Shown in pieces: positions 10,138 to 28,359 of a stretch of 64,000 bases of DNA. The position numbers and the translations under genes are program-made. The first letter of the stretch is position 1, and each line of letters opens with the position of its first letter. Below the pieces are notes generated by a model. That model worked only from the letters and a program-made list of their open reading frames with translations. It was not told where the DNA came from and made no database searches. This DNA is from Elsinoe ampelina (Eukaryota). The DNA lies in the NCBI GenBank assembly GCA_010093995.1, contig ML992501.1, positions 1,925,320 to 1,989,319 on the forward strand, read 5' to 3'.

Positions 10138-13074
10138 ATGGCAGCGCCGCAGGGCTATCAGGACGGGCAGTACGCACAGGATGGTACCCAGCCATACGAA
10201 GGGCAGCAACCTGCTGGGGCTCCCGTCCCTGCTGGCGGCAAGAAGAAGAGAGCCTACGCAGGACAAGCATATGATTTCGGCGCAAACACAGGAGCAGCAG
10301 CCGCACCGCCTGCGCCAGGCGCACCATACGGAGGAGCTCCCGTAGCGCAGGCAGCACAACCTGCATACGGCGGCTATCCACAACAAGCAGCACAACCAGG
10401 GTTTCCAGCTCAGGGATATGCTGATCCCAATGCTCAGCAACCGGCGGCGGGACAACAGTATGGCCAGCCTCAATATGATGCATCAGCAGGATATCAAGCA
10501 CCACAGGCTGGTTATCCAGGTCCAGGTCAGCCTGCTGCGCCGCAAGGAGGAGTTGCTGGCATGACACAGCAGTTTGGACAGATGGGATTCAACAATCAGC
10601 AGCCAGCGGCGCAACCACAGCAAGCTGGGCAAGCTATGCAAAGACTGAACCCTCTTCAACCCGTGGACATTAGCGTCCAAGGTGCACCATTCCATGTTTC
10701 GGACCTTGATCTTCCTCCACCGCCTCTTATCCTCCCGCCAAACGTGAGTACAACTAGTAGCTGGGACCATGACCAGAACTGACAGATTTCAGTCGAGTGT
10801 GACACCAGCTCCCACCGCCAACTGTCCTCCACGATATGTACGATCTACGCTTAATGCCGTTCCGACCACGAGTTCCCTCCTCAAAAAGTCAAAGCTACCT
10901 TTTGCCCTTATTATTCAGCCGTACGCCGCACTCCACGACTCGGAAGATGACGTTCCAGTCCAGCAAGATCAGGTCATCGCACGGTGCAGGAGGTGTAGGA
11001 CATATATCAATCCGTTTGCGACTTTCCTGGACCACAGCCACAGATGGAGGTGTAATATGTGTAATCTGACCAACGACGTTCCGCAAGCATTCGATTGGGA
11101 TAATGTGCGACAGCAGAGTGTAGACCGATGGCAAAGACCGGAGCTCAACTACTCTGTCATGGAATTCGTTGCACCGCAAGAGTACATGGTGAGAGCTCCA
11201 CAGCCTCTGGTATATCTCTTCCTGCTGGATGTCAGCTATGGTTCCGTTACGAGTGGACTGCTAGCTACTGCAGCCAGATGCATCTTCGAAAGTCTGGATA
11301 GGATTCCGAACGCTGATCACCGGACCCGTCTGGGTTTCATGGCTGTCGACTCTAGCCTGCACTATTTCTCCATCGGACGTGACGGTGCTGAGGTGAAGGA
11401 CGCGAGCATGCTGGTCGTCAGCGATTTGGACGAACCTTTCCTCCCAACTCCTGAAGACCTTCTGGTCAATCTGTCCGATTGCAAAGCCAACATCGAGAAT
11501 TTCCTCAATAAGCTACAAGGTATGTTCGCAAACACTCAGAATGGCGCCTCGGCGATGGGATCGGCATTAAGAGCTGGGCACAAATTGATTTCGCACGTCG
11601 GAGGAAAGATTGTATGCCTGACAGCCACGCTTCCCAATGCAGGCTATGGCAAGCTGGACGTACGAGAGGATAAGAAGCTGCTGGGAACTAGCAAGGAGAG
11701 TGCTTTGTTGCAGACCGCAAATTCATTCTTCAAGGCGTTCGCGGTGGAATGCTCCAAGACCCAGGTATCGATCGATATGTTCTTGTTCTCGGCACAATAC
11801 CAAGATGTGGCGTCATTGAGCAACCTACCACGCTACACCGGCGGACAGACATACTTCTACCCAGCATGGAACGCTGCCCGTACTGAGGACGCGGTCAAGT
11901 TCGCTAGCGAGTTCAGCGACTACCTCTCTGCAGAAATTGGCCTCGAAGCTGTCCTTCGTGTTCGGACAACGACCGGTCTACGACCCAGCTCCTTCTATGG
12001 CAACTTCTTCAACCGCAGCTCCGATCTTTGTGCATTCCCGGCATTCCCTCGCGACCAAGCCTATGTGGTCGAAATTGCCATCGACGAAACTGTCTCGAAA
12101 CCATTCATCTGCTTACAAGCTGGTGTCCTCCACACAACATGCAATGGCGAACGGCGGATTCGTGTACTTACACTCTCGATACCTACGACTCAGATCTTGG
12201 CCGACGTCTACGCAAGTGCGGATCAGCAAGCCATCTCGGTGTACTTCAGTCACAAAGCTGTCGAGCGCGCACTCTCGTCCGGTCTGGACGCGGCTCGCGA
12301 TGCTCTGCAAGCGAAGATCATCGAGCTCTTGCAGACATACAAGAAGGAGCTCGGTGGCGGCAACATGGGTGGGTCAGGACTCCAATTCCCGGTCAACATG
12401 CGAGCCCTCCCCATCTTGTTCCTTGGTCTGATCAAGAACGTAAGTCACCTTGTCCATTGCAAAACTCAATTTACCATACTGACTTATCACAGCTTGGATT
12501 GCGGAAATCCGCCCAAATCCCGTCAGATCTCCGCTCCGCTGCCTTGTGTCTCCTCTCGACACTTCCCCTTCCCTTGCTCATCCAGTACATCTATCCCCGT
12601 CTGTACTCACTACACGACATGCCGGATAACGCCGGCATTCCAGACCCCGACACTGGCGACATCGTCCTGCCCCCGGCCCTCAACCTCACCAGCCAGAATC
12701 TGGTACCCTACGGTCTGTACCTACTCGACGACGGACAGACACAATTCCTGTGGCTCGGCCGCGACGCCGTTCCACAGCTGGTCATGGATGTCTTCGGCAC
12801 AGACGACAAAGCTCAGCTCAAGCAAGGCAAGACCACATTACCTGTCCTCGACACTGAATTCAACGAGCGAGTGCGGGCCGTGGTGGACAAGAGCCGAGAC
12901 CACAAAGGTAAGGGATGCGGTAGCATCACGTACCCAAGCTTGTACCTTGTACGGGAGGATGGTGAGCCAAGTCTTCGCTTATGGGCGCAGACACTGCTTG
13001 TCGAGGACAGGGCGGATCAAGGAGTGAGCGCGGCTCAATTCGTGGGCATGTTGCGGGAGAAGGTGATACAGTAG
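10138..13074 (+). CDS. SEC24: COPII coat cargo adaptor Sec24
   Basis: Q/P/G/Y-rich N-terminus; zinc finger [12 protein letters not shown]...WRCNMC; trunk and gelsolin regions; introns 10744-10792 and 12440-12492 join the three ORFs in frame. Confidence 0.95.
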
Positions 13075-13473
13075 ACGAATCGCATTGGTAGACGGAAAGT
13101 GCAGGGGTTGGCGCCGTGGAGCGGGGCATAGTCTATGATGCAGATGGTGGTCTGGCATGACAGGACAATTGGCAGAGAGAAGCATTTAGTAGAACAGACG
13201 AAGCCATATTCCATCACATGAAGTCCTGCATGTTTGTGGTTTCGAGAACAGCGCGCCCTGGCATATTCCGCGCATCTGCTATCAAACGATCAGACTCGGG
13301 CTTCGAAGATTCGACGTCGCACGAGTCCATCACAGTAGCACCCTTGTTCCCGTCACATCCAAGCCATCACACATACTGACGTGGTGCAAGCTGATCGAAT
13401 CGCCCTACTCCTGCCACAGAAGCTTGATGCCCGAACCACCAACACCGCCCTTTACCGCCCCCATTGATCATCT

Positions 13474-13519
13474 CACCCTCCAACCCTCCAACCCTGCAAC
13501 CCTCCAACCCATCAACCCT
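13474..13519. repeat. Degenerate CAACCCT(C) microrepeat, about 5 copies
   Basis: caccctc caaccctc caaccctg caaccctc caacccat caaccct read directly. Confidence 0.6.
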
Positions 13520-13544
13520 TGCCCTCCCGACTCAACATCTCCCA

Positions 13545-13882
13545 TGCTAACACCACAACACCACTCATCACTAATACCAACCTCGTCATCCAGCACAACC
13601 AATATGACCCCGCCTTCCCAACCCCTCAACCAACCATGGCGCCAACGCAGCGGCGTCCTCGCACAGATCGCAGAAGCGGTCGCGAACCAGCAACACCGCC
13701 ATCCGGAAGGGCAAAGGATGAACCTGTTCCCCGAGGGAGCGTATATCTACAACGGAGGGCAGGGGGCGGGTGACGGCGGTGGGGTGGTGATCTTTGATAC
13801 GGATTGGGATTTGGAAGGGGAGGTGGGTGGTGGTTTTCGCCGTGTGGAGGGGGGAGGCTGTGGTAGTGCTTGTAGACAGTGA
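13545..13882 (+). CDS. Possible small hypothetical protein
   Basis: Open frame with ATG in a strongly skewed segment; no recognisable domain, may be a compositional artefact. Confidence 0.25.
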
Positions 13883-13915
13883 GGCGGTGAGGGTTGTGCC
13901 AGAGAATTAAGATAT

Positions 13916-14155
13916 CTAGGTGTCTGCGTCACTCACATCCGAGTCTGAACCCGAGGGAAGGTCGAGGTGGACGTCCTCTGGTGTGAAGTATCTCGGGAAC
14001 GGGTAGGTCTTGTTTAAAGTATCGACCAGTGGAGCCCAGACTATGTCTTCGTCCATGCCCCATCCGCGCTCGTGGTCGGGGAGGTACTCGTCGTGATTGA
14101 TGAAATACCATGGTGATTCGGTCATCGGATCGAGATAGAAGTCGTCGTTTCCTTG
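13916..14155 (-). pseudogene. Orphan terminal exon / truncated gene remnant at left edge of island
   Basis: Protein-like frame GNDDFYLDPMTESPWYFINHDEYLPDHERGWG...* preceded by branch/acceptor-like TACTGAC...CAAG, with no convincing upstream exon before the S8 stop. Confidence 0.3.
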
Positions 14156-14288
14156 TCGAGTCAGTAAGGTCGTGTGAAATTTATGTCAACGACGGGAGTC
14201 TGGTATGTCACCCGGGCTCTCCAAAGGACTTCGAATGGTAATGTATTCAGACGCTATCATCGGTGGGCTTGCGGACTTTGGAGCAAAC

Positions 14289-16712
14289 CTACAATGCTGA
14301 ATCAATGGCTTCGATGATGAGCGAGTTTCTGACCTGCTCATCCTTAAGGAAGAAGCTTGCCGGCAGCAGATTGTAGCGACGATCATTGGGCAGATGCGAG
14401 ACCTTCTTGAACAGGTTCGTCATCGTAGTCTTCACACACAACCGATTCCGTGACCACAACTTGTTCGAGGCCAAATCTTCTCTACCCTCTCGCATTCCGG
14501 TGTACTCGAGCAATGATGCAGCGAAGCCAGCTGCGATCGCCGTGGCGTACGACGTGCCGGTGCCGACTGTGTAACCTTGCGATACGAGACCAGAACATGG
14601 GACCTCCTCTGCCAGCGTGCCGAAGATGGCCGTCCCATCTCGTTGCATCTGTGGGTTGATGGAGTCCAGGTAGACTCCTTGTGCATTGGTGCCGTGTATC
14701 GGGATCACGAACTCGTTACGAGCGGGGAACATCATGTCCCCTTGGTTGGGACCGTCGTTGCCTGCGGCGGCGAAGAAAAGAATGGACCGGTCGCGATCAA
14801 AGGTCGCTCTCTGGATCGCTCTATCTATCTCTGTGCAGCACGAGGGGGATGAGCGAGAATTGAAGCCGAATGACATGACTATGACATCGACCTTCCATTC
14901 CTCGCTCGCAAACCGAATAGCCTGCTGACATCAGCATAATCGTCGAGAATAGTCTTGCACACTTGCCTCTGCAATATTCGTGGCGGATTGCTCCAGTCCG
15001 GCCGAGTCATTCGCAACCCGTGCGATATATACATCCACAGATGGTGCAGACTTCATGACCAGGGACGCGATCCTCGTACCGTGTCCGTGATAGTCAATGT
15101 ATGACTTTGAACTGTCGAAATAGTCTTTCCAGCCCCTGATATGCTTGCGCCGCTGGTGATTTCGGAAGAACTCCGCGCTCGAGTCAAGCCCCGTATCTAA
15201 GATCGCAATTCGCGTGATACGATGGTTTGTAACACTTCTGTAGTGGGTCTGTTGGAAGACTCGACCGTACGAGTGGAGTAAGAGACTGAACCATGCTTCC
15301 CCCGTCGGCCTGTGACGAGATTAGCTTCCGAAGGAAGTGAAAGACTTCTGACTTACGAAGTTGTCCGCTGGCCTAATGGGGAAGTCGCACCTACTCTATG
15401 GTCACCGACGGGGATTGGCTCGATGCCGACAAGAGCTTCTCGACAAGGTATGGGATCAAGCTCGGGCACATCATGCGCCCATCCTGACACCTTGAGAAGC
15501 TGCCATAACGGTTGCACAATTTCATCGTAAAGAGCACTACGTTTGCAGCGAGGTTCGGCGTCACGGTGATCGGCCTTGGAGTCTTGGAGAAGAGGCGAGC
15601 AGGGATCAAAGCATCGCTTGACGATCGCCCGATACTTCGATCGTAGAATGGATGATTTGTTGACGACCGGGAAATGCGGCCATGCCATATCATTACAAAG
15701 GACTTGGCGGCATCTCGCGGCATCGCCATTGATCAGCTTATCGAATGAGATTCCCGGCGGCGAATCCGAAGGTACGAGTATTCTCTGGTGTCCCAAGTCC
15801 ACTAAGAGCTTTCCCAGAGCCAGAATATAAGGGAATCTGTGGAACACTTGTCCATCGTAGTGTTCTGGGACGATGTCATGCTCGGTGAAGTCGGCTTTGA
15901 AATATGGGCTGTGAGCATAGAGGGTGTAGTCCGATTCTCCGGATACGATACCGGTTGCGACGTGCTTGAAGAAGAGTATCGAGTCGCACGACCACCAGGT
16001 AGTCATCCAAGAGGACGCATAATATTGCCAAAACGAGGCAGCCAGGGAGTACGCAAGGACAAGTCGCATCTTGGTGCTCATATCATAATCGTTGAGAATC
16101 TGATGCAGGGGTACCCCGTCGGTCGGATGAAGTGCGTAACCTTCAATGACACCATCTACAAGTTCGGGTCGAGCATCATCGTCGAGCTGTAGTGTACTCA
16201 CCGCGGGTCCAATATCGCTGTTCAGAATATCGCACATGAGCTGTCCATGAGAATTGACTATTGTCTGGTCACGAGCGTGCTCAGCAGTGGTGTCCCGGTA
16301 ATTCGAAGGGTGAGATCGACTGCAGTTGTCAGCAGTGATAGCGTCTCTCTGTCCACACTTACTCGAGGAGACTCAGAATCATCTCCCTCCAATGAGTCAA
16401 CGCGCGAGTATTCTTGTGTCCATGGCCGGAAAAGAGTATCCTTGGACCGTGAGCGGTTTGTCCAAACAACGAGTACGCTCGGAGGCATAGTCGGACCAAA
16501 TGCCCATGTCTGTGTTGATCGCCCATGTATGCTCCGCAAAGACAGGGTTGGTTTTTCAAGCCTGTATAGATTTGATTGTGTCTTGAAACAGCAAGCAAAG
16601 CTTCCTTGCTTCGGCGCGAGCCTTGTCTCTTCGAAACATGCTTGACTGCGGAACTCCATGCATAAACCAAGATAGACAGGGGAAGGAAATACAGGACTGC
16701 CTGTACAACCAT
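14289..16712 (-). CDS. Multidomain subtilisin-like (S8) serine protease with N-terminal pseudokinase-like/DUF7580-type region (gasdermin-partner type)
   Basis: Spliced model: ATG 16712 (start uncertain); introns 16362-16320 (GTAAGT..CTGAC..TGCAG), 15356-15310 (GTAAGT..CTAAT..ACAG), 14966-14922 (GC-AG). Intact triad IAILDTG (~15195), HGHGT (~15082), GTSYAT (~14551) and oxyanion AAAGN. N-region LAYSLAASFWQYY...LGKLLVDLG...YRAIVKRCF...LYDEIVQPL. Confidence 0.88.
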
Positions 16713-17052
16713 GGCCGCGAGGAGGTGATACTGGACCTTGAACTGCCACGGATGCTGATATTTGTGATCTGGAGGGTCAGGCACCACTTCGAGGGTGGTG
16801 TCGCTTTAGCGCCGCGGCGAGGATGCATTGCACGTGCCGGCAGACGATCGCGATGTGTGCCACGTCAGTCAGCTCGCAAGGAACTGCAGCCAATCACTGC
16901 ACCTATGTCGCCGTAAAGGTGGTCAGCCATCACCAGCTCATCGCGGTCGTCCAAGCAGCAACCTGCATCTCGTCCTCCGAGAGCCAAACACGATGTTTTG
17001 TGCGCGTGAGCCCTCGGACAGCGCTCGATAATTGCGATGCGACGATAGTGTC

Positions 17053-20000
17053 ATGGAAAATAGCAAGGTTGAGCACCTGGTGAGACAGTGTATAGAAGGC
17101 CTTCAGCGACTGCGAACGCGAGTGCCGCCGCAACTGAGGCTCATGCGCGACTGCTTGGACAATCACATCGCTGAACTGCGTCTCTGGTCGTCGGATGATT
17201 CCATCAATGCGAGCCCAGGCCTGGCCTCGTACAAGTCTCAGCAGGGCGCAGGAGACAATATCCACGCGTTGAACGTTCTAGAGACAATAGAGACTCTGTT
17301 GAGCAAATGTCTGGATGACGGTATGGACGAAGAGCGGCAAGTCGAAAGATCATGATGAAGACTGACGGAAGATAGAAAATTTGAGAGGCGCACTAGGTGA
17401 GATCTTCCACTTCCGCCTCAGTCAAACCCAGACTCCCACCCTGAAATTTTGCACACGTTTCGAATAGACGCCGTTTCCACGTAGTCCGCATCCAAGAGCA
17501 TACTGATGAACATACTTTAAGATCATCTTCCGGCTGTCGATGAGTGCTTCGAGGTTTTGTTCTCCGGCAGGATAAGGCTTCCTTTTCATACGTCGTGGTC
17601 AGCTGTCCGTGGAGGCCCTGATACCTTGTCTTCCCTGCCTGCGCCCTCGAATGAAGAGTGGCATTCCTTGGACGAAGTGCAAGAGCGAATATACCAAGCC
17701 AGTGAGAGTCGACTGGCCTGGCTGGGACGACTTCACCCTTTGGTTCAACCGTGTAACAGCCAGTCTGTTCACCACGACGCCGCATGGAAGGCAATCCAGG
17801 AGCCCGGCACGGCGCAGGCCGAGTCACTGAACAATCCCGTGATCCACGAATGGGTAGCGAATGGAAACACTTATAGGCCCACTTTTACGGCGAACGACGA
17901 TATTTGGATGCCGGGAGGATGGACTGTACCTGGAGAAGGGTTGCAGCAACAAAGTCAGCCGGACCTTGTCGAAATAGACACGAATGTTCATGGACCTGGA
18001 CAAAATGGTTCTCGGTATTCCCATGAAGATCAAGCATTGCTCTCCATACTCGCATCATGCCACCCCTACGTATGCATCTTCGAGAACTGTGCAGATCCCG
18101 ACATAGCTTATAATTCCCGAGAAGCCTGGGAGGAGCATATGCAGCTATGTCATCCAGGCCCGCTGTGCTGGGACTGTCCATTGTGCGTCGGCGTTGAGCG
18201 ATTCTACTTCAGCGACACCTTCTTCGACCACATCAGCTTGCTACATCATGACGCCTTCGGTGACATCCAAGTGGCAGTCGACATGCTTGCGAAGCGTGCC
18301 GGTCCGACCCCTCTGACCTGTCCACTTTGCGCTATGCAGTCGTGCTGCACCCTTCAGGAGGACGATACTCTACTGGATCACATTGCACGACATCTGCGTC
18401 AAGTCTCCGCATCGTGTATAACTGCGAGATTGACCATGAACGCCGATGCTCGGCAGGTATCCGCGAGTGGTGCAAATGATATAGAGGGACCGCGTCTGAT
18501 CGTTGGAGCTACGATCGCCAATAAGGCTGCGAACGATCGCCTCTTAGCGAGAAGTTTCTTGACGGCCCAGACTAAAAGCGCACATTCGAGACTCATCGAA
18601 CGCCTACAAGGCCTTGCACATCCAAAGGAGGCAGCACAGCCAAAAGAGACAGCACAGCCAGATCAAAATGGTCTGAATCTTTGCAATTACGAAGCAAGCA
18701 CTGAACCAAGTATGTGGGTGGAAAGGAACTCGAGGAATGATCGCTGACAATTTATAGTTGTCCGTAAATCAAAGGAGCCTTTCAATAAGTCGGTCATAAC
18801 AAAGACGAGAGGAGTGATGTCGGATGACTCCTCTGTCGATAGACCAGGTGCTACCTCAGCCCCAGTCAACTACACGTCGAAGGAGGATCCAGCCATACAC
18901 AGCAAGCCTGTAACTCCGAATGGAACTTCCAGCTTGACAAGGGTGTTGAGGCCGGCCTTTCCAAACCAGGACACAAGGCCGCGAGAATGTACTTGTTCCC
19001 GTTCGGAAGCAGGCTCTCGTCTCGGAGCCACTCCTGAGAGCTATGTCGCCTCTATCAGAGATCAAGTACGACATCAGCGATCCAGCTCACCCCTTCTGGG
19101 CGAGATCTTCCAAATCCTGTCTGAACGGTTGAACAAAGAGAACATGACAAACGGGGTTGATGAAATTGCAACAGATGCCGAGCTGTACTTTCTCTCGGGC
19201 AACGGACAACTCGATCATCGTCCGCTTTTGAGCGTTCGGGAATGGGATGCTCTTGACGTATATCGCGACCCGGCGTGCTGTATGGATCAAACGTTGGACT
19301 CCATCCCGAAGATTGTGATTCTTCGAGGCAATCAGCCTGCTCAATGCCTCCCACGCGTGGGTGCCAAATTCAATGTGGATCCCCAAGTATTTCTTCGCCA
19401 TCTACAGCATCTCTGGGGCGGCAAAGATTTTAGACTGTTCGCCTCACTAGCTCTACCCTCTACTTCTGTCGATGTCATCAGTCTATCGGTGATGACTTTA
19501 GGGAAGCACGGATACTCCGGATTGTCACTACCGCTGCTCAGGGATAGAGGGCAAATGGAGATGAATAAGTATTTGCATGAGGTGACTACAGACCGTCGCA
19601 TGCAGGCAGGAGACTCACTTGTCCGGCGATATTGGATTCATAGTCTGGATTACTTCTCAGTAGAGCAGGAGATTACAGTCTCTCTACAGCGTATGGATCG
19701 AGGATGGACTCGTAAGTATTGTAACCACCTTTTTGGACCCACGCTGACTCGAGTGAAAGTACTCATATGGACTGACATCGCTCGTCCGCTCCATCAAGGG
19801 CCGCTTGGACCATGGTACAAGCAGCTGAAACCCAGCGGTCTCTTCACCAATACGTTTGTGCGTCAGATCCGGCTTCCTGGTATAACGCTGGACAGGGAAC
19901 CCGCCGTTACTACCTCGCCTTTTGCCGGGCCCAAGTCGGATGACCTGTCTCGGCCAAGACTGCGTCATTCCCTTGTTTATGGAGTCAAAAACGATCCGAT

Positions 20001-20619
20001 TTTGATGGCTGTCGACCCTTTTTACTGTGTGCTCGAGCTTTTCGAGCTGTCAGCGTCCTCACTTGATCAACTGCTCAAGCTAATAGGAGGGCTCATGCAA
20101 GAGCGGTTGGGCTACGGCCATGTGGGCGGATCTCCAATGCAAGATCACGCCGATCTCCTCTTCCAACAGGACGTTCTGAACAGAGTGAGAGAACGAATCG
20201 TCAGCAGTCTCGCCGATATCAGACACTACAGCAACACTTGGCCCAGCACGGCTTACGAGGAACAAAAAGAACAGATCGACCGTGCCAGAGATAACATCCT
20301 ACATGACTTTGAAGATCTCAGGCAGCGTACAGATCGCCTTCTCCTTCGTTGTCATGAAGGCATGGCCATGTGTACAAGTCGTGCTGCTATTGACGAAGCC
20401 GGAAAGTCAATGGATCAAGCCAAGAAAGTTGCCCAGCTGACTTGGCTCGCCTTTCTATTCATGCCTTTGTCCTTCGCGGCATCGATTTTCGGCATGAACA
20501 ACTCCTTCCTCATGGAGTATGATACTGTGTCTATGGTGTGTTGGATCACACTTGCGATAGGAATGGGAACGACGTCGTATGCAGTGTTGTTCGCAGCTGG
20601 ACAGCGCTCCAAGTCTTGA
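17053..20619 (+). CDS. Fusion: helical HeLo-like N-terminus + C2H2 zinc-finger cluster + CorA-like (GMN) transmembrane channel domain
   Basis: ATG 17053 (MENSKVEHLVRQC...LRLWS); introns 17321-17375, 17397-17521, 18710-18757, 19712-19759 give a continuous frame. Zn-finger motifs PYVCIFENC...WEEHMQLCH, WDCPLC...FFDHISLLH, CPLC...LLDHIARHL. C-terminal stalk/TM AKKVAQLTWLAFLFMPLSFAASIFGMN plus a second hydrophobic helix. First two exons are less certain. Confidence 0.75.
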
Positions 20620-22327
20620 TGGCTGCTGACTGGCCCAACACTCTAATCTTGTCATGCTGAGATTCTTAGACTCACCATTGTGGCCGACCAGATATTACGA
20701 CACTTTTGACACTTCTTGGTACGGTGACTTTCTGCTCGCAACTGCTGCAGCTCTGGGACCGAATACTCGCCCCCTTGCAATGGCAACAAATACACCCGCC
20801 GCTTGTTTGGAAGCTCAGAGAGCGACCTGGCCGACGAGGGGGGCTGGATTCAACGCTAAACCGGGATGGGAATAGTTGTACACGACTGGAACAAATGGCA
20901 AGTACAGACAGACGAAGAGGGGCCATATGAGCAACTATTATCAGCATCGACACCAAGTCCGGACGGGTTTTACATGTAGTGCGGAAGGAGAGATTGTGAT
21001 GTCTGTCTATCAGAGGAGGACGCATGTCCCATCGAAGCCTGACTCGTTCCATGCTTTACCATGCATAGGGAGAAGGAACACCAGTATCTTTCCCACTAGC
21101 GTCATGCTGGCGCCGTATTGGCCGGTGGCTAGGCATTGCCTTGTCGCCGTGTCTTCTTAGGATGCAAAGGCAAGATAGCTTATTGGTTTGATAACAAGGC
21201 AAAGCGCCACTTAGCCGGACTGATCCGCACCAACGATTCACCTCAGGCATCACAAGATTCATGCGCTTGTGTAACGTGTGTCGATTGACTCCGCATTGAC
21301 AGGAGCCCCTCGCTGTGTAACGTACATCCTGCGAGGTTCAATAGCGATTGTGATTAACCCACGTGGCAGTCCTACGTTGGGCGCCACAATCGTGGGCAGT
21401 TCTTGTGTAATCTGCTAGACCTACTGCGTTTGTTACATGCACCAACTCATGTATGTAGTCGCATGCGTAGAAAACAGCCATCTGTTGTTGCGTTTGGTCA
21501 TGCCGGTCGTCGTCTGCGCACATTTTGGTGCGTGCCAGCGAGACGGTGTCGAGCACTTGTGCCGGCCGTGGCCTTCATAGACTTGCACGCTGGCCAGATG
21601 TCGAATCTTGCGGTCTAGGTTGGATGTGTCCGGCATTGACTTTGGTGGCTCACATAGTGCTGTTATACGGCAAGCAATGAAATTCGCCCTCTCGCACTTG
21701 TAGCTATGGCAATGCATATAGCCACCGGCGTCTATCTCACGCATTCAGCGAAAGGTACCCTACGACCGACCGCGGTTTCTGCGATGATAGACAAGCAAAC
21801 AGTGCTTCTCGAGCTTCCCTTCATCATCCATATCCTTCGGACCCATCTATACGAGATCGACCTTGCAGGCATGAATATCACGACTCTCTGTTGATCACGT
21901 CTGCCTTTGAGTTGTGGACGCTTTGTCGCTCGCAAGATGTCAATTCTCATGGTCATTGGCATCATTTCAGAGATACTGGCGACACCGATGTTTGACCTGG
22001 AGAGATCGATCTTTAAAGGAAAGAATTCTCGAAGAGGTCGACGGTCGGCAAATCACGAGATCCTGTCCGTGGAGGCCGAGGTCTTCGCGTCGCATCGGGA
22101 GCTGATTCTTTTCTTCGTCAATACGTACCTCTCCGCGCCGCATTGCATGCGATAGCTCAGCTCCAATGACAGGCTACGGCTAGCCAGCGCATCGCCGCTG
22201 ATGATGTGCATTAAGGCGCGTACTGATACATTGATCGCCAGCGACTTGGGCCGCCCATACGCCCAAAATGTGGGCGCTTGGAGGGGCACAGAGGGTAGAA
22301 GAGCTCAGGCTTGCCCTGAACACAATC

Positions 22328-25300
22328 ATGATCCTCCCTACCGACACGCGCCAACTACAGTTGGTCAAGGATGAGGATTTCCCACGATCAATGTGAGCGG
22401 AACAAACGCCAACATTGCAACTTCCGCACAACTGACTGAGCGTAGCTTTATCAGCGTGGCGGGGATTGGCACTCTGCCCGCGAGTGAATGGTCGGCGACT
22501 TCCAATCTTGGTGTTTCAACAGCATTTCCAGGCGACTTACTACAAACACCTGTCTGCTACGGTTTCCGCCATGGACTCACCCTTGAAGACGACCGCAGCG
22601 TGTGGAGCCTCTTGGACAACAAGGGGGACGATTTGCTTGAGGAGGTGGCTGCTTTGCTCAAGGACCGGCCAGAAGTATGTCAACTCGTTCCCGCGTAATA
22701 AGCAAAGACTGATTCTCAAGCTACAATACTGTCCAATCGTATTCTGTGCCCACAGTCTGGGCGGACTAATCGTCAAAAAGGTCAGACTTCATTAAAGTAC
22801 TCAGGGATTTGGCTGAGATCGCCTCGCAGTGCATTGTTGAAGCTCTCAGCCGCCAGATGGACTTCCCGGAACTTACTCGATTGATGGCTTGTTTTATCCA
22901 CATGGCCGTGCCGCATTCTCTATCGCCGGATCGGCATGTCTGGAATCAGCATGCGTTGATTGTAGCTTCACAAAGAGTCGCAAAAGTCTCGCGGAAGACG
23001 ACTGCGGACGAGGCCTTGAACTTGTCGAAGCTATGTGCTAAGTATGAGCAAGTTGCGACAATTCTACCATGTGTCGTTCTGCAGGAGACTCAACCCGTTT
23101 TGGTCAAGAATGGATTATTCAAGACCAACATGACCATGGCAAGCTGAATGACCCCCAGTACAGTATCATACGCTGATGACTTAGATTGTCCAATCTGACT
23201 CACGTGGTCTCCCAAGCGCCCATCGCACGCTTGATGTTGGGGCGACGCACTTCGATATCTGCACCAGAATCCCCTTCCAGGAGCTGCGACCCGTGGTGGA
23301 CGAGACTGTTGGGTTCGCCAGAGGTCGAATCGATCGAGAGTCAAGCCCTTGTAGGTCTCGTGCTACTATGTCTCGACGATCGTGCCTTAACCTAGCTAAT
23401 CCTGGATGCCTGCAGCACTGACTCGGTCTACGTTGGCAAGATCCACTATTCGTGCAAATTCGGAGAGCGGAGATGATGGTTCCTCAGGTGAGTCTTGGGA
23501 CCGGTCCTGAGCGCGAACATTGACCATGAAAGCGTACGATACTATCTACACGAGTACAGGTCGCAGTAGTCGAAGTACACAAGCTTCTACTTCTACGAGC
23601 GGCAGTGGACTGAGCGCATCATTCCGTTCGCTCGACTTCACTCCACAACGAAGCGACATCATTCTCCCGTGCCATATGCTCGCTGAAAATGACAAAGACG
23701 CAAAGTTCGTTGGTCGTACGGATGTGCTCAATCAGATAGAGCAGTATCTCTTGGGCGACCGATCCGGAGATAGCGCACCTCACGATCTCAGGTCTTTCGG
23801 CATATGTGGGCCAGGAGGCATTGGTAAAAGTCAAGTGGCGATGGAATTTGGTCGTACTCACACCGATGTCTTCGACGCGATTTTCTGGCTCGACGCTGAG
23901 CAGCTTACGACACTGTTGGACGGTTTCAGCCGTATCGCTGTAGCACTCGGTCTTATTCGGGAGAATTCAGCCGATGCACGGGATCAAGTGCTCGTACGCG
24001 AGCTCGTTCAAGGATGGCTTGCCAATCCGGTCAGGTCACGCAGCACTGCGGACACCACTGCCCAATCGCTGGCCAGATGGCTACTAGTATTTGATAACGT
24101 GGAGAGCCAAGATACACTCATGGAATTCTGGCCTTCAGCAAGCAGCACTGGTGCCATACTGGTCACGAGTCGAGACACTCGAGCAACAAAAATGGGCATC
24201 TATCCCATAAAGCAAGGCTCGATGTTACCTCCGCTCGCGAATGAGGAAGCTGCCGACCTTCTCTTGACCTTGGCCTGGAGAAAGGATGATGCTGACGAGG
24301 TTGTACCAAGTCAAGAGCTTGCGCAACAGCTAGGTGGCATGCCTCTTGCTGTGGTACGCATGGCGGGAGTTGCTATGGCCCAGGATCTGTCATTCACCGA
24401 ACTTCGGCAGCGGGTTGAGGAAGAATCAACGCATGACGACTTGTTCGAGCTATCGGACCATCCGCTAGCAAGTCAGAACAATTACGACTATTCGCTGTCC
24501 TCGGTCTGGAAGTTTGAGAAATTGCAGCATTCGACGACGATGCTGAATGTGATCTCATTCGTCGATCCCAGCAGTATTCCGGAAGCAATGATTACCGGCA
24601 GCTTTGAGAAAATTCAGATACCAGGCTTCCCTGCCTCACGCATGAGCTATCAAAAGTCCACATCCGAGCTGCAAAGACATTCGCTCGTCAAAGTCGACAA
24701 AACGGCCAAGAGCTTGTCCATGCATCGCTTGATACAGGACAATGCGCGGGCTAAACTACTCAAGGATCCAACGACTATGACAGCCGTGTTCCGCGCTGCT
24801 GTGACTATGGTGAAGCAATTCTGGCCGTACTCCGACAATGGTGTTCGTCATTCAACTTCGCGATGGAGGCAATGCGCAGCCATAGCACCGCATATCGAGA
24901 GGTTACATGAACATTGCAGCAAAGCGGTCCCAACTCTGCGGGCTGAATGGGAGGAGAATATTGACCTTGCAGATCTGCTGGTGGAGCTCGGCTGGTTTGT
25001 CTACAGAGAGTTATGCAGAGATTGATTTACTGATCAACCCAGGTTTTTGCTGGAAACGGGTCTATCCTCTGAAGCGCTGAGCTTCTTCAAGCTGGTAGAG
25101 AGCCGACTGGAGCGGATGCTCCTGAGCACCATAGCACCGTCTGACACGGAGACTCTGAGACTTCGACACGTACTTGGCGAGGTCTACAACAGCGTTGGCG
25201 GTATCGCAGAGGAAACCAATGATGCAGAGACTGCAATCCATTACATGCTCAAATACCACGAAATGCTTGGTCACGACCCGGTACTGCCTGGTGGTACTGA

Positions 25301-26103
25301 TCAGAGGCTCGTTGTATGCTATTATGATCTGGCATTGGCTTACGCCATGCATGGAAATTACGGCGAAGCACTTGTCTGGTGTGCGAAGTCTACCGAGGCA
25401 GCCAGCTTCTTGCGGGACCCAATGACTGTCAAAAGAGCGAGGTCGCTGGCTCTTGTCAACCGGGGAATGACATACTGGCTGATGGGAGACAATGACAATG
25501 CTTTGCAAACGCTGAATCAAGCACTGCGCGAAAGGGAGGAGCTTTACGGACCGAACGACCGCGAATCCATGATGTAAGTCCTGGATGCCTGTTTCGCGCA
25601 AAGTATGAGCTGATAGCATGTTCCAGCACCGGCCGAATTCTTCACAGTCTCGGGAATGTAATGCGGTCCATCGACGAGAGCCCTCTCAGTTTCGATTATC
25701 ATCAAAGGGCGCTGGAGCACTTCCGCGAGACTGTAGGGGACCGGCACCATCGTACCGGAAACTCGTGCTATAAAGTTGCCGAACACTTGCTCGAGGCAGG
25801 CATGGCAGCAGAGGCAAAGTAGGATACTTTCGAGACACTGCACTGGTGCATGAGCTAAAACCTCCCAGGCCGTTGCTGGATCAAGCAGTCAAAATCTTCC
25901 AGGGCCGCGTTCAGCTCAGGGCTGATCTGGGACGTGTAGTCATGCTACAGAGCGAAGCGCTGGTCCAACTTGGAGAACATGTTGCAGCAGCTGGCGCCCA
26001 GAAACAAGCTACTGAGCTCTACAAGAGCTTGCGTGGGGGTCTGATCAAGGCAAGCGTGGATCGGTCAGCTTTCGACGAGTACGTACATGTTTGGAGTCGT
26101 TAG
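22328..26103 (+). CDS. Fungal NLR: SesB-like alpha/beta hydrolase + NB-ARC + TPR
   Basis: ATG 22328; introns about 22393-22445, 22675-22720, 22781-22829, 23139(or 23103)-23184, 23351-23415, 23488-23532, 24995-25042, 25574-25627, 25819-25868. Hydrolase elbow IVFCAHSLGGLIVKK and His motif ATHFDIC; Walker A GPGGIGKS, Walker B WLLVFDNVE, ILVTSR, LGGMPLA, MHRLIQ; TPR helices ending FDEYVHVWSR*. Confidence 0.9.
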
Positions 26104-26505
26104 CCGCAGATTGTGCCGCAGCACCCGCCGTTTTCGGCGCGAATCAAAATTTCTTGGAGCGCTTCCCTTTTTCCGTCATCCATCCTGTTTGTGTAACCAA
26201 CCAACCCACATTGAAAGTGCTTTTCATCTTGATCCATCTCGAAGACGCGTAACTACGAGCACTTGCGTCCCCCCTGAAAGTGACGATCATGCACTCGGGT
26301 CGAGTGAGTCGAGAGCAGCCACTCTGCGAGATGCAGGGCGAACGCCATTCTCTCATTTGGCGCCAGTCAATGTTTAGTGCATCTGCACAAGCCATGGCGC
26401 ACGTCTAGGCGAAGAGCTGTGCCGCCATGTAGCCTTACACCTGTGCAACGAGCTGGTACTGATTGCCATGCTCGCTCTATCTCTGGCCTTCATTGAGGTC
26501 ACACC

Positions 26506-28205
26506 ATGGCCAGCGTGTCTGATCGGACGGAGACCAACAGTGGTCATAACATACGATCTGGCAACGGACACACAGCATCTACAGTAGCGTCTGAGTATGC
26601 ACTCTACGTCGAGTCGCGCAAGAATGAGTCGTTCGCCACCACTCCATGTTCTGGAGAAGTCTTGCACACTTTGAACAGCTACTTGATTAAAGATCTGCAA
26701 CCAGCGGCTCATGGGATCCTTAGTTGCTCCAAGGCGGATCTATCTTTCCACACATTCGATGGCGATGCATCACTTGTCAGTAGGAAACTGACCAGCACCG
26801 ATGAGCTCGAGCAATATGAGGTTGAGTTGACGAATTCATCCAGAACCGGCGCGACCAGCGACCGACCCAGCATTGTCATCCTTCGAGGACACCAGCAGGC
26901 TCACTGTCTGAACCTGATAGGAGGTTTGTTCGAGATCGACCCTCATTTCTTCAACGCGCATTTGTCGTACCAATGGCCGCAATGGTCATCGAATCTTTTC
27001 GCACAACCTAGCCTACCTTCAGTGGTTGCGGATCAAGTGACTTTCTGCATCGCCACTCTGGGGACACATGGACAAGTGGGCAAAGACATCGCCGCCGAGC
27101 GACATTTGGCAGCTGTAGACATGTACGGATACCAACACGTTCTGACAACGGGAGAGCAAAAGTCTGGCGAATCGGTGGTTCGGATGTTCAATCTGCACAC
27201 CCTCAGGCACTTTTCCATTGAACAGCATATCACAGCAAGCTTGATCAGACATGGTGATCAGTGGAGGAGTGAGCCATGTATCGCAGTATTCCGAAACCTC
27301 ACTAATTGTCTGCAGTGATTATCTGGTCCGACATAGCTGGACTTCTCGACAGTGGTCTGCCAGGCCCACGGTCACCGATGAAAGGCACGTCACTGCTTCC
27401 GACCGTCCGCAGATGGACGCCAGCAGCTTCGGAGACGTTCGCTAGACTCGGTCGCAATCATAAATTTCCATTGCCAGGGATGCATCAGACAGCCCGCCAT
27501 TCCATAACGGACTTCGGCGCGACCCTAGATCCACTCCTCGCTTCCGAAGACCCTCTATACGCACTCTCAGATATCGTCTCCCTATCCGCAGACTCCCTGA
27601 ACCAACTCCTCAACATCTGCGCCTGCGTACTAGACACCGAGGCCGCCCGCGACCCCGACGAACACCAGGAACACCAGGAAGCCGAGATCATCTACCACCA
27701 ACGAATCCTCAAGCGCCTCAGCACCCACATCACCCAAACCCTCTCCCAACTCGACCACTTCCGCCAAACCTGGCCCCACTCCTCCAATCCCACCAGGCAC
27801 TCCCTCTCCACCACCACCCTGACCCTCATCACCACCGACTTCTCCACCCTCCAGACCCGCACCGACGCCCTCCTCCTCCGCTGCCGCGAAAGCATGGCCA
27901 TGTGCATGCACGCGGCCCAAATCGAGGAGGCGAGGAAGAACATTGAGCAGGCGAGGAAGGTGACGCAGCTCACGTTCCTCGCGTTCTTTTACATCCCGTT
28001 GTCGTTCACCACGTCGTTTTTCGGGATGAATGTCACGTCGCTGGGCCAGGCGGATGGGTTGCCGCTCTGGCCGTGGCTGGTCATGTCCGCGTGTCTGCTT
28101 CTCGTGTCGTTGGGGATTTTGGGCTTGGTGGAGAGGTTGGGACCGCTGTTAAGGGGGCAGAGGGGGGAGAAGGCGGGGCGGTGGCTGAGGGGTTGGTGGA
28201 AGTGA
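26506..28205 (+). CDS. CorA-like (GMN) transmembrane channel protein, paralog of the upstream CorA domain
   Basis: ATG 26506; intron 27269-27315 joins the 270 aa and 299 aa ORFs; IVILRGHQ...IDPHFFNAHL; ARKVTQLTFLAFFYIPLSFTTSFFGMNV followed by a second TM helix. Confidence 0.85.
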
Positions 28206-28359
28206 GGTCTTGTGTTGAAGTGGCTGCTCGGAACGGCAATGCCGTCTCTGCTTGTAACTCATGTACACGTTGACAACGACTACGAGAAACGCTTGACAGG
28301 AATGTGAAATGCAACGCTACCTGAATGCTGATAGGTCATACCCGGGTATATCATGACTT

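What the first reader, a model, noticed from the sequence alone, without database searches (positions are those of the whole stretch)
14289..20619. Head-to-head S8 protease / CorA-fusion pair: possible proteolytically gated channel
Seen: predicted starts at 16712 (-) and 17053 (+) are only about 340 bp apart, implying a shared bidirectional promoter. The CorA domain is joined to its N-terminal domains by a long low-complexity linker (about 18450-19050). Inference: this mirrors gasdermin-protease gene pairs, and the protease may cut the linker to release inhibitory N-terminal domains or a helical effector.
Basis: partly seen in the sequence, partly recalled or inferred. Interest (0 to 1): 0.75.

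Follow-up and report, generated by a model that had tools for sequence, protein, structure and literature searches.

The report
CorA-like channel genes beside fungal NLR
In the grapevine fungus Elsinoe ampelina a gasdermin-type protease gene does sit head-to-head with a zinc-finger/CorA-channel fusion gene, but relatives of that channel gene are regularly found next to an NLR immune-type receptor gene and not next to a protease, which points to a so far undescribed receptor-plus-channel gene pair.

Summary
The window is fungal: Elsinoe ampelina, with spliced genes. The head-to-head pair is real and transcribed.

- **Protease** (14289-16712, minus strand): an intact subtilase of the DUF7580+S8 kind. 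Its closest relatives outside Elsinoe are listed by Clave et al. 2022 as HET-Q2-like neighbours of gasdermin genes.
- **Fusion gene** (17053-20619, plus strand): a C2H2 zinc-finger module, a disordered linker of about 115 residues (18619-19011), and a complete CorA-fold core with the GMN motif.

No S8/DUF7580 gene lies beside any of 36 distinct relatives of the CorA-like gene in metagenome contigs. The best Elsinoe homologues of the two genes are also unlinked.

These relatives sit next to an NB-ARC/TPR NLR instead. This holds for 9 of 9 loci with a full-length match and at least 6 kb of flank. In the window the same kind of NLR (22268-26103) is flanked by the fusion gene and a second CorA-like paralogue (26506-28205).

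My best reading is an NLR plus CorA-like channel module. The protease is probably a gasdermin protease that has lost its gasdermin neighbour. Cleavage of the linker stays possible but has no support.

The parts
14289..16712 (-). HET-Q2-like subtilase gene (NCBI KAF2227800.1 = P0004, annotated from ATG 16237). My model gives 762 aa. Exons: 16712-16363, 16319-15356, 15308-14965, 14919-14289. Intron ends are ambiguous by 1-4 nt.
   Evidence: Pfam Peptidase_S8 and DUF7580. P0004 is 100% identical. RNA joints and the X4 loose end. In-frame splice model. Weak homology of the 5' exon to P0007. The C-terminus at stop 14289 matches the family end, and the NCBI C-terminal extension is unique among 24 sequences and scores badly on codon usage.
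14550..15197 (-). Catalytic residues of the S8 domain: Asp 15195-15197, His 15081-15083, oxyanion Asn 14757-14759, Ser 14550-14552 (P0004 D332, H370, N463, S532).
   Evidence: These columns are invariant or nearly invariant in the 24-sequence alignment A3. Coordinates were mapped.
15353..16372 (-). DUF7580 region of the protease (matches profile positions 143-317 of 319). About 145 N-terminal residues seen in relatives of about 880 aa are missing here.
16713..17052 (.). 340-bp stretch between the two proposed start codons. It is covered without a gap by an unstranded RNA contig.
   Evidence: X1 record 2, piece 15356-17319. No frame has a positive codon-usage score.
17053..20619 (+). Zinc-finger::CorA-like fusion gene, called CorA1 here (NCBI KAF2227801.1 = P0001, annotated only from ATG 18436). 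It is 1116 aa if the hypothetical intron 17457-17521 is removed. Otherwise the long ORF starts at ATG 17908.
   Evidence: P0001 maps exactly to 18436-18709, 18758-19711 and 19760-20619.
18058..18393 (+). C2H2-type zinc-finger motifs (CxxC / HxxxH pairs) of the N-terminal module. It resembles the ascomycete zf-C2H2_AcuF family.
   Evidence: Motif positions. ESM Atlas nearest clusters carry PF26082 in 41-64% of members, score 0.95 (a lead only). 29% identity over 102 aa to the N-terminus of the NLR in L030, E 9e-11.
18619..19011 (+). Disordered low-complexity linker (P0001 residues 62-176). It spans intron 18710-18757.
   Evidence: AlphaFold2 pLDDT below 50. Mapping.
19021..20619 (+). Complete CorA-fold core: N-terminal alpha/beta domain, stalk helix and two transmembrane helices. 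GMN motif at 20491-20499. Intron at 19712-19759.
   Evidence: AlphaFold2 with 79 sequences gave mean pLDDT 76.4, and most 10-residue blocks of the core are above 90. The Foldseek top hits are T. maritima CorA: E 8e-8, probability 1.00, about 470-496 aligned columns. GMN is nearly invariant in A2.
22268..26103 (+). NLR gene, 1126 aa from 10 RNA-supported exons: alpha/beta-hydrolase (sesB-like / DUF676-like) N-terminus, NB-ARC, DUF7779 and TPR repeats.
   Evidence: Pfam NB-ARC E 1.4e-10, DUF7779 E 1.4e-21 and TPR. Weak DUF676, E 0.17. Joints. ORF models.
26506..28205 (+). Second CorA-like paralogue, called CorA2 here (KAF2227804.1 = P0067, 550 aa). Intron at 27269-27315. It has no N-terminal extension.
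   Evidence: Pfam CorA 29.3 bits, above the cut-off. 34% identical to the CorA1 core, E 1e-42..

Best explanation
**What the locus is.** It is a 14-kb island of fungal immune-type genes set among housekeeping genes (Sec24, kinesin, ATG9, phosphoglucomutase). In order it holds a HET-Q2-like subtilase (minus strand), then on the plus strand a zinc-finger::CorA-like fusion gene, a sesB-like/NB-ARC/TPR NLR, and a second CorA-like gene.

**What is shown.**
- The CorA-like genes belong to a large Pezizomycotina family with a full CorA fold.
- The recurrent genomic partner of that family is an NB-ARC/TPR NLR. It is not a protease.

**What is inferred.**
- The CorA-like proteins act with the neighbouring NLR. 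Most likely they are pentameric cation channels in a membrane that serve as the NLR's output: ion flux leading to cell death or signalling.
- The zinc-finger module is an accessory N-terminal domain of the kind that moves between NLRs and their partners. In locus L030 it sits on the NLR itself.
- The subtilase is a gasdermin-activating type of enzyme that has no gasdermin neighbour in Elsinoe ampelina. Its likeliest substrate is the unlinked single het-Q1 homologue, KAF2227151.1.
- Whether it also cuts the CorA1 linker is open.
For: **NLR beside relatives of the CorA-like gene.** A scan of metagenome contigs used only CorA-like sequences as the query and gave 42 loci, of which 36 are distinct. 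tblastn with the window's NB-ARC exon hit the flanks at E 1e-34 to 7e-86, 30-35% identity over about 450 aa.
- 13 of the 36 distinct loci hold a piece of the NLR.
- 12 of the 16 with at least 6 kb of total flank hold one.
- 9 of the 9 with a full-length family match and at least 6 kb of flank hold one.
- The gap from the NB-ARC exon to the CorA match is 1.25-3.2 kb in 10 loci and 6.2 kb in one.
- None of the 13 loci that hold the NLR is among the redundant pairs found at 80% DNA identity or more.
- Unsupervised ORF clustering recovered the same NLR parts as the only widely recurrent neighbours.

**The same arrangement in the window.** CorA1 ends at 20619, the NLR runs 22268-26103, and CorA2 starts at 26506. 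The accession numbers run KAF2227800, 801 and 804.

**Fused gene models elsewhere.**
- P0207 (Fusarium sp. AF-6) joins an NB-ARC half to a CorA-like part. The NB-ARC half is 40% identical to the window's NLR, E 3e-42.
- P0140 has CorA-like + GPIID_WHD + ankyrin repeats.

**Zinc-finger module on an NLR.** In L030 one 738-aa ORF carries a homologous zinc-finger region directly upstream of NB-ARC.

**CorA fold.**

**Protease family and its lack of a gasdermin neighbour.**

**Literature hint.** In Morchella importuna a polymorphic CorA-domain gene is one of two candidates linked to vegetative incompatibility by bulk-segregant analysis (PMC8940278, passages). I did not test whether it belongs to this subfamily.
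Against: - Adjacency does not give a mechanism, and no functional data exist for any family member.
- No short motif is shared between the window's NLR and CorA1 or CorA2 (best E 0.037). The amyloid-type signalling known for other fungal NLR-effector pairs is therefore not seen.
- Four loci with long flanks lack the NLR (L026, L032, L038, L042). Their CorA matches cover only the C-terminal transmembrane region.
- Twenty distinct loci are too short to judge.
- Several loci come from the same metagenome and could be paralogues in one genome.
- The metagenome contigs are taken to be fungal only from their homology.
- The protease really is head-to-head with CorA1, 340 bp between the proposed start codons, and both are transcribed. 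A local functional link cannot be excluded.
- Two family representatives carry a full set of trypsin-like catalytic motifs at the N-terminus, and a third carries a degenerate set. Proteolysis may therefore matter in this family.
- CorA1's Pfam score (23.0 bits) is below the curated cut-off.
Confidence: 0.55

Rival explanations
1. **First reader's model.** The subtilase cuts the disordered linker of the zinc-finger::CorA fusion. This releases an inhibitory N-terminal module or a helical effector and opens a CorA-like pore, in the way HET-Q2 activates the gasdermin HET-Q1.
For: - The protease belongs to the family documented to activate a neighbour-encoded pore former.
- Its catalytic residues are intact.
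- The two genes are head to head and the stretch between them is transcribed without a gap.
- The linker of about 115 residues is disordered.
- The N-terminal extension was not found in any of the 148 other family representatives tested.
- Three representatives carry an N-terminal trypsin-like domain by motifs and an Atlas lead; one of them is degenerate.
Against: - The linkage is not conserved: 0 of 36 distinct loci hold an S8/DUF7580 gene.
- CorA2 and most relatives have no N-terminal module to remove. Release of such a module therefore cannot be how the family in general is controlled.
- The recurrent partner is an NLR.
- Both 5' exons need introns that the main RNA contig retains.
Confidence: 0.12
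2. **Chance neighbour.** The protease's only substrate is the single gasdermin (het-Q1 homologue KAF2227151.1) encoded elsewhere in the genome. A rearrangement separated the pair, and the protease's position next to CorA1 has no functional meaning. This is compatible with the best explanation.
For: - Dataset S1 of Clave et al. 2022 lists one E. ampelina het-Q1 homologue with no protease within 10 kb. The same is true for E. fawcettii. E. australis has two HET-Q2-like S8 proteases listed in Dataset S2.
- KAF2227800 and its E. fawcettii homologue KAF4550642 are absent from those datasets. Each species therefore has a gasdermin without a protease neighbour and a protease without a gasdermin neighbour.
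- The paper reports that about 80% of fungal gasdermin genes have a protease gene within 10 kb.
Against: - Action on an unlinked gasdermin has not been shown for this family. The paper's tests showed that HET-Q2 did not process two distant het-Q1 homologues.
- The protease lacks about 145 N-terminal residues present in its relatives and may be decaying.
- I could not obtain the gasdermin sequence to look for a cleavage site.
Confidence: 0.45
3. **Ordinary transporters.** The CorA-like genes encode metal-ion (Mg2+/Co2+/Zn2+) transporters. Their closeness to NLR genes reflects shared location in fast-evolving gene-family regions and not joint function.
For: - The protein has the full CorA fold and the GMN motif.
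- One genome paper treated CorA-family expansion as a transport trait (PMC3897900, passages).
Against: - 9 of 9 informative loci have the NLR within 6.2 kb, in varied orientations, and at 27-34% protein identity to the query. That is hard to get without selection for linkage.
- The cytosolic domain specific to this family is conserved across 1332 representatives.
- Fused NLR/CorA-like gene models exist.
Confidence: 0.15
4. **Guarded target.** The CorA-like protein is not the output of the NLR but what the NLR watches (a guardee or decoy). The NLR's own hydrolase domain is the effector.
For: - The NLR already carries an enzymatic N-terminal domain (sesB-like/DUF676-like) in the window, in L014 by Pfam, and weakly by tblastn in L006 and L012.
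- Dyrka et al. 2014 list sesB-like domains as N-terminal effector domains of fungal NLRs (PMC4986451, passages).
Against: No direct evidence either way. Two CorA-like genes flank one NLR in the window.
Confidence: 0.15

Closest known systems
het-Q1/het-Q2 and het-Q2-like gene pairs of filamentous fungi: a gasdermin plus an S8 or CHAT protease (Clave et al. 2022, PMC8851545; passages and Datasets S1/S2 seen)
   Same: The window's protease is homologous to listed HET-Q2-like S8 proteases: 34% identity to PYH72818.1, E 4.6e-81. Most relatives found share the DUF7580+S8 architecture, and the catalytic residues are intact. It sits directly beside a gene for a membrane-inserting protein.
   Different: The neighbour is a CorA-fold protein and not a gasdermin. 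The only het-Q1 homologue of the species is listed without a nearby protease. The pairing with CorA does not recur in 36 distinct related loci. Cleavage is untested.
Fungal NLR plus adjacent effector gene clusters, for example NWD2/HET-S and other amyloid-signalling pairs (named from memory; general description in PMC9815663 and PMC12881547, passages)
   Same: An NB-ARC/TPR NLR lies immediately next to a gene for a membrane protein. The linkage is kept across divergent lineages. Domains shuffle between the NLR N-terminus and the partner: the zinc-finger module is on CorA1 here and on the NLR in L030.
   Different: The partner has a CorA fold, which is not mentioned in the main text of the two fungal NLR surveys I searched. 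No shared amyloid-type motif was found. The NLR has its own hydrolase domain.
CorA/Mrs2/Alr1 magnesium channels (PF01544; T. maritima CorA structures 2bbj, 3jcf, 4i0u)
   Same: Full-length fold match (Foldseek E 8e-8, probability 1.00). Two C-terminal transmembrane helices and the GMN motif are present.
   Different: Sequence identity is only 10-14%. The cytosolic domain carries family-specific conserved motifs. The family is strongly expanded in Pezizomycotina, with 1332 representatives at 50% clustering. Genomic linkage to NLRs is not a trait of housekeeping magnesium channels. Ion selectivity is unknown.
CorA-type membrane effectors of bacterial type III CRISPR systems, and the calcium-channel resistosomes of plant NLRs (both recalled from memory, no call)
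   Same: What it may work like: an immune sensor coupled to an ion channel that kills or arrests the cell.
   Different: No homology or membership is claimed. The activation route here is unknown, and no second-messenger enzyme was seen in the locus.

Membership tests
HET-Q2-like gasdermin-associated S8 proteases (Clave et al. 2022) | Subtilase (S8) domain with the Asp/His/Ser catalytic triad | tested here: met
   Pfam PF00082. D332, H370, N463 and S532 of P0004 fall in invariant or nearly invariant columns of A3. Mapped to the window.
HET-Q2-like gasdermin-associated S8 proteases (Clave et al. 2022) | Homology to proteases catalogued as HET-Q2-like | tested here: met
   Of 6 homologue clusters looked up, 4 have accessions in Datasets S1/S2 (PYH72818.1, OJZ84313.1 and RAK85635.1 for P0007's cluster; RGP78854.1; KIW24023.1; CZR61671.1). 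KAF4550642 and KUJ09274 are not listed.
HET-Q2-like gasdermin-associated S8 proteases (Clave et al. 2022) | A het-Q1 gasdermin homologue within 10 kb | tested here: not met
   KAF2227800 is absent from the datasets. The one E. ampelina het-Q1 homologue (KAF2227151.1) is marked n/f, meaning no protease nearby. No gasdermin family was found by Pfam among ORFs of at least 110 aa across the window. That is a weak negative, because I never saw this Pfam copy detect a fungal gasdermin.
HET-Q2-like gasdermin-associated S8 proteases (Clave et al. 2022) | Cleaves and activates its partner | not testable with these tools
   This needs co-expression and blotting.
CorA metal-ion transporter superfamily (PF01544) | Pfam score above the curated cut-off (27 bits) | tested here: inconclusive
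   CorA1 scores 23.0 bits, below the cut-off. CorA2 scores 29.3 bits, above it. Six of the 10 relatives scanned score above the cut-off, up to 47.2 bits.
CorA metal-ion transporter superfamily (PF01544) | Two C-terminal transmembrane helices with GMN at the end of the first | tested here: met
   G654, M655 and N656 are nearly invariant in 79 sequences. The model has helices 576-654 and 666-694.
CorA metal-ion transporter superfamily (PF01544) | Whole-chain CorA fold (alpha/beta N-domain, long stalk helix, transmembrane hairpin) | tested here: met
   All Foldseek PDB hits listed (ranks 1-44) are T. maritima CorA chains: E 8e-8 to 2e-6, probability 1.00, 463-496 aligned columns against targets of 316-352 residues.
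CorA metal-ion transporter superfamily (PF01544) | Pentamer that conducts Mg2+ or other divalent cations | not testable with these tools
   The complex tool takes at most 4 copies.
Fungal NLR plus adjacent effector gene clusters | NLR and partner genes are immediate neighbours in many lineages | tested here: met
   In the window, and in 9 of 9 informative metagenome loci (13 of 36 distinct loci overall).
Fungal NLR plus adjacent effector gene clusters | A short signalling motif shared by the NLR N-terminus and the partner (amyloid signalling type) | tested here: not met
   blastp with word size 2 of the NLR (1126 aa) against CorA1, CorA2 and the protease gave a best E of 0.037. Tested only in the window.
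sesB-like/NB-ARC/TPR NLRs (Dyrka et al. 2014, PMC4986451) | Alpha/beta-hydrolase N-domain, NB-ARC NOD and TPR repeats in one protein | tested here: met
   NB-ARC, DUF7779 and TPR by Pfam. One 1126-aa ORF from RNA joints. The hydrolase part is supported only weakly: DUF676 E 0.17, with a GxSxG-type motif.
zf-C2H2_AcuF (PF26082) | Match to the family profile | tested here: inconclusive
   The local Pfam copy gave no hit at E up to 10. The ESM Atlas nearest clusters carry PF26082 in 41-64% of members, score 0.95 (a lead only).

The most novel reading that the evidence does not exclude
CorA-fold channels are a so far undescribed class of partners of fungal NB-ARC/TPR NLRs, most likely the cell-death or ion-flux output. 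They would form a widespread two-gene immune-type module in Pezizomycotina. This would parallel the plant resistosome channels and the bacterial CRISPR-linked CorA effectors (both recalled from memory). In the boldest version, the Elsinoe ampelina copy with the zinc-finger module and disordered linker is also licensed by a cut from the neighbouring gasdermin-type protease. I put that extra step alone at about 0.1.
Probability: 0.4. Interest if true: 0.85.

Novelty: new variant of a known kind. Interest (0 to 1): 0.62.

Why it matters
Fungal NLRs number in the dozens to hundreds per genome, yet only a few output mechanisms are known (HeLo/HELL pore formers, gasdermins, patatin, amyloid relays).

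A recurrent NLR plus CorA-channel pairing would add an ion-channel executioner to that list. It would give a function to a large family of "CorA-like Mg2+ transporter" genes of unknown role. It would also make a cross-kingdom parallel, immune sensor plus cation channel, testable in genetically tractable fungi.

For genome annotation, the work shows that three NCBI gene models at this locus are probably truncated or extended wrongly.

For the original question, a gasdermin-family protease without a gasdermin neighbour is not by itself evidence that the gene next door is its substrate.

Tried and rejected
- **Whole genome:** none is held for this window, so I could not search for the gasdermin or for other CorA-like or S8 copies.
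- **Sequencing runs:** no listed holder is on record as RNA. The contigs turned out to be spliced, but they cannot rank expression or show co-regulation.
- **Complex prediction** (protease 1-625 with P0001 1-200): no verdict, score 0.00. This is not evidence either way.
- **AlphaFold2 of P0117** (a trypsin-like::CorA-like relative) with 3 sequences failed, mean pLDDT 32.1. The protease nature of that domain therefore rests on His/Asp/Ser motifs read and on an Atlas lead: Peptidase_S64 in 15% of one cluster and Nal1_C/Trypsin in others, scores 0.89-0.93. Pfam at E up to 10 and a PDB sequence search found nothing for it.
- **Codon-usage scoring** of doubtful exons was only weakly informative, and one of six training ORFs was in the wrong frame.
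- **Exon 1 of CorA1** against the upstream ORF of L030: E 0.62, no support.
- **Shared motif** between the NLR and the CorA proteins: none.
- **MFS transporter** next to the protease in black Aspergilli: a true MFS gene merged into one mis-fused gene model. I judged it coincidental, because the gasdermin lies on the protease's other side in the accession order.
- **C-terminal extension of P0036:** it looked gasdermin-like by eye, but Pfam, the PDB sequence search and tblastn against the window did not confirm it.
- **Earlier findings of this scan:** nothing on this genome or these sequences.
- **Literature:**
  - 0 papers for "DUF7580".
  - Searches combining CorA with NLR, NB-ARC, heterokaryon incompatibility or cell death found no paper linking CorA-like genes to fungal NLRs.
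  - "CorA" is absent from the main text of PMC9815663 and occurs only as "coral" in the 12 of 20 passages of PMC4986451 that I saw.
  - Supplements of those two papers were not read.
  - The supplementary PDF of Clave et al. could not be read.
A 12-sequence alignment worked.

Full report
**Organism and gene structure**

The ORFs in the finding are broken into pieces in the way intron-bearing genes are. The plus-strand ORF 18748-20619 is 97% identical to an Elsinoe ampelina protein (P0001, KAF2227801.1). The minus-strand ORF 15353-16372 is 100% identical to the neighbouring accession (P0004, KAF2227800.1). No whole genome is held for this window.

Logan contigs from four runs of two studies were laid on 12500-28500. 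They carry GT..AG joints of 43-65 nt, so they derive from spliced RNA.

**The protease gene**

- Pfam finds Peptidase_S8 and the C-terminal 175 positions of DUF7580.
- RNA joints give two introns, at about 15309-15355 and 14920-14964. The second probably has GC-AG ends.
- An X4 loose end at 16363 matches 16304-16319. That defines a third intron, 16362-16320, which the main X1 contig retains.
- Homologue P0007 (residues 146-235) aligns weakly to that 5' exon in the same frame (E 0.37).
- Relatives are about 800-910 aa. The E. ampelina protein lacks roughly their first 145 residues.
- All 22 relatives that align there end within about 20 residues of the in-window stop at 14289. The 70-residue C-terminal extension in the NCBI model is unique among the 24 sequences and has a poor codon-usage score.
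- The catalytic Asp, His, Asn and Ser are in place.

**Which protease family it is**

A word-indexed search with P0004 returned 47 proteins. Thirty-five of the 37 best hits other than P0004 itself are named fungal records, and most carry DUF7580+S8.

I looked up accession numbers for 10 of them and searched for those of 6 clusters in the supplements of Clave et al. 2022 (PMC8851545).
- Four clusters are listed in Dataset S1 as the S8 protease next to a het-Q1 gasdermin homologue: PYH72818.1 with OJZ84313.1 and RAK85635.1, RGP78854.1, KIW24023.1 and CZR61671.1.
- KAF4550642 (E. fawcettii) and KUJ09274 are not listed, and neither is the window's own KAF2227800.
- The same dataset lists a single het-Q1 homologue for E. 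ampelina (KAF2227151.1) and marks it "n/f", meaning no protease within 10 kb. E. fawcettii is marked the same way.
- From passages of the paper: 80% of 1,884 fungal gasdermin genes have a protease gene within 10 kb, 63% of them of S8 type, and HET-Q2 cleaves HET-Q1 near F238.

So the window's enzyme belongs to the gasdermin-activating type, but it has no gasdermin neighbour.

**The CorA fusion gene**

- Exon 1 (17053-17320) is transcribed and spliced to 17376 (X1, plus an X4 loose end).
- Introns 18710-18757 and 19712-19759 are seen in all four runs.
- P0001 maps exactly onto 18436-18709, 18758-19711 and 19760-20619. Its start is simply an internal methionine of a 408-codon ORF that is open from 17521.
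- With only the RNA-supported introns, the frame from ATG 17053 ends after 119 codons. A further 65-nt intron (17457-17521, GTTTCG...CTGAT...AAG) would give one 1116-aa ORF, but the contigs shown retain that stretch. Otherwise the first ATG of the long ORF is at 17908.
- In either case the zinc-finger motifs (18058-18393), the linker and the CorA core lie in one ORF on one spliced transcript. The fusion is therefore real.
- The ESM Atlas places the zinc-finger ORF next to ascomycete clusters carrying zf-C2H2_AcuF (score 0.95, a lead only). The local Pfam copy finds nothing.

**The CorA core**

- An exhaustive HMMER search with the 623-aa ORF found 1332 representatives at E up to 1e-3. They are typically 500-600 aa.
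- An AlphaFold2 model of P0001 built with 79 of them has mean pLDDT 76.4. Most of residues 180-695 is above 90, and residues 62-176 are below 50.
- All Foldseek hits listed against the PDB are Thermotoga maritima CorA chains (E from 8e-8, probability 1.00), aligned over nearly the whole target.
- GMN is nearly invariant.
- None of the 148 other listed representatives matches the window's zinc-finger module.

**Is the protease-CorA linkage conserved?**

- In E. fawcettii the protease homologue and the best CorA-like homologue lie on contigs of different length. In E. australis the accession numbers are thousands apart.
- I scanned metagenome contigs with a 12-sequence CorA-like alignment and obtained 42 loci, 320,844 bp in all. 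Six are near-duplicates of others, which leaves 36 distinct loci.
- No S8/DUF7580 sequence is present in any of them. I checked by tblastn with three proteases at E up to 1e-3 and with an HMM of alignment A3 run over all ORFs of at least 90 aa. The HMM hit only the window's own exons.

**What is conserved instead**

The window holds more than the pair.
- A 1126-aa NLR lies at 22268-26103 on the plus strand. It has an alpha/beta-hydrolase-like N-terminus, NB-ARC, DUF7779 and TPR repeats, in ten RNA-supported exons.
- A second CorA-like paralogue lies at 26506-28205 (KAF2227804.1). It is 34% identical to the CorA1 core.
- All other Pfam-assigned ORFs in the window are housekeeping-type or general families.

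tblastn with the window's NB-ARC exon hit the flanks of the CorA-like gene in 11 loci at E 1e-34 to 7e-86. One more hit lies at a contig end (L011), and L003 has a hit to the TPR part only.

| Set of loci | With an NLR piece |
|---|---|
| All distinct loci | 13 of 36 |
| At least 6 kb of total flank | 12 of 16 |
| Full-length family match and at least 6 kb of flank | 9 of 9 |

- The four long-flank loci without the NLR (L026, L032, L038, L042) match only the C-terminal transmembrane region of the query.
- The other 20 distinct loci are too short to judge.
- Orientation varies: same strand, divergent and convergent. The genes are nevertheless next to each other. The gap from the NB-ARC exon to the CorA match is 1.25-3.2 kb in 10 loci, which the NLR's own remaining exons mostly fill. 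It is 6.2 kb in L017.
- Unsupervised clustering of all ORFs recovers the NLR parts as the only neighbours that recur in more than 7 loci.
- Two gene models point the same way. P0207 (Fusarium sp. AF-6) is an NB-ARC half, 40% identical to the window's NLR, joined to a CorA-like part. P0140 is CorA-like + GPIID_WHD + ankyrin repeats.
- In L030 a single 738-aa ORF carries a zinc-finger region homologous to the window's module (E 9e-11) directly in front of NB-ARC. The same accessory module is therefore on the NLR in one lineage and on the CorA-like partner in E. ampelina.

**Proteases elsewhere in the family**

Three of the 150 best representatives (P0117, P0178, P0196) have N-terminal extensions of several hundred residues (the CorA-like match starts at residue 574 or later). 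Two of them carry His, Asp and Ser motifs in the order typical of trypsin-like proteases. The third is degenerate.

The Atlas places P0117 residues 1-470 near clusters with Peptidase_S64 or Nal1_C/Trypsin in 13-19% of members. Pfam, the PDB sequence search and a 3-sequence AlphaFold2 run did not confirm the fold.

This is the one family-level hint that proteolysis may matter. It concerns a different protease clan.

**Interpretation**

*Shown:*
- The gene pair, its transcription and its splicing.
- The protease's family.
- The fusion and its disordered linker.
- The CorA fold.
- The lack of recurrent S8 linkage.
- The strong NLR linkage.

*Inferred:*
- The CorA-like proteins work with the NLR. 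Most likely they are a channel-type output. Less likely they are a guarded target.
- The protease most probably serves the unlinked gasdermin, or is decaying.

No motif is shared by the NLR and the CorA proteins in the window, so the coupling mechanism is unknown.

One paper offers circumstantial support. In Morchella importuna a polymorphic CorA-domain gene is one of two candidates linked to vegetative incompatibility (PMC8940278, passages). I did not test whether it belongs to this subfamily.

**Novelty**

My searches of the held library found no paper that links CorA-like genes with fungal NLRs. The main text of PMC9815663 does not mention CorA, and the 12 of 20 passages of PMC4986451 that I saw show the string only as "coral". 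Their supplements were not read.

The sesB-like/NB-ARC/TPR architecture itself is known (PMC4986451). I therefore rate the finding as a new variant of a known kind, namely an NLR plus an adjacent partner gene.

Noticed in passing
window 13916-14185 (-) and 13929-14180 (-): The NCBI protease model P0004 splices past the stop at 14289 into frame 13929-14180. That frame has a poor codon-usage score (-0.23), and no relative has such a tail. The overlapping frame 13916-14185 scores well (+0.17 to +0.19) and lies near an RNA contig that also covers the Sec24 3' end (to 14151). It may be a separate small gene. No Pfam hit.
   Followed up: partly
window 14920-14966 (-): The third protease intron appears to use GC-AG ends (GCAAGT...CAG). 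The joint is ambiguous by 4 nt in the RNA contigs.
   Followed up: partly
L006 2707-3688, L008 5394-6008, L012 9041-10055, L013 2296-3247, L018 12741-14856, L024 227-2616, L027 17449-18015: A third gene family with no Pfam hit recurs near the CorA-like/NLR pair in 7 of 36 distinct loci, sometimes in two copies. From memory its motifs resemble CmcJ/NvfI-type oxidoreductases; this was not tested. It is absent from the window. The fused model P0211 (DIOX_N + CorA-like) may be a related hint.
   Followed up: partly
L030 4447-6663 (-) and 2277-2594 (+): An NLR whose N-terminal domain is an AcuF-like C2H2 zinc-finger region, in one 738-aa ORF with NB-ARC. Next to it is only a C-terminal fragment of a CorA-like gene, possibly a remnant.
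   Followed up: partly
proteins P0117, P0178, P0196 (no window coordinates): CorA-like family members with long N-terminal extensions carrying trypsin-like His/Asp/Ser motifs (degenerate in P0196). P0117 comes from an unnamed ENA record on an 8.7-kb contig. Whether these are true fusions or merged gene models was not tested.
   Followed up: partly
protein P0036 (Mollisia scopiformis), residues about 820-1128: A DUF7580-S8 protease model with a 300-residue C-terminal extension. By eye it looked like a merged neighbouring gasdermin. Pfam, a PDB sequence search and tblastn against the window gave no confirmation.
   Followed up: yes
protein cluster of P0007 (black Aspergilli): The 90% cluster mixes the protease with MFS transporters, because one A. 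niger gene model (GAQ42970.1, 1348 aa) fuses the two neighbouring genes.
   Followed up: yes
window 20620-22267: The RNA contig of the pair runs on to 21194, about 575 nt past the CorA1 stop. Two accession numbers (KAF2227802 and 803) lie between CorA1 and CorA2, so a further annotated gene or a split NLR model may lie here. ORF 20672-21055 (-) has no Pfam hit.
   Followed up: no
window 12627-13719, 14328, 15092, 16637, 26359-26908: Runs X2-X4 differ from the window at scattered single bases, while X1 is identical. They probably come from another strain. No indel was seen inside the two genes of the finding.
   Followed up: no
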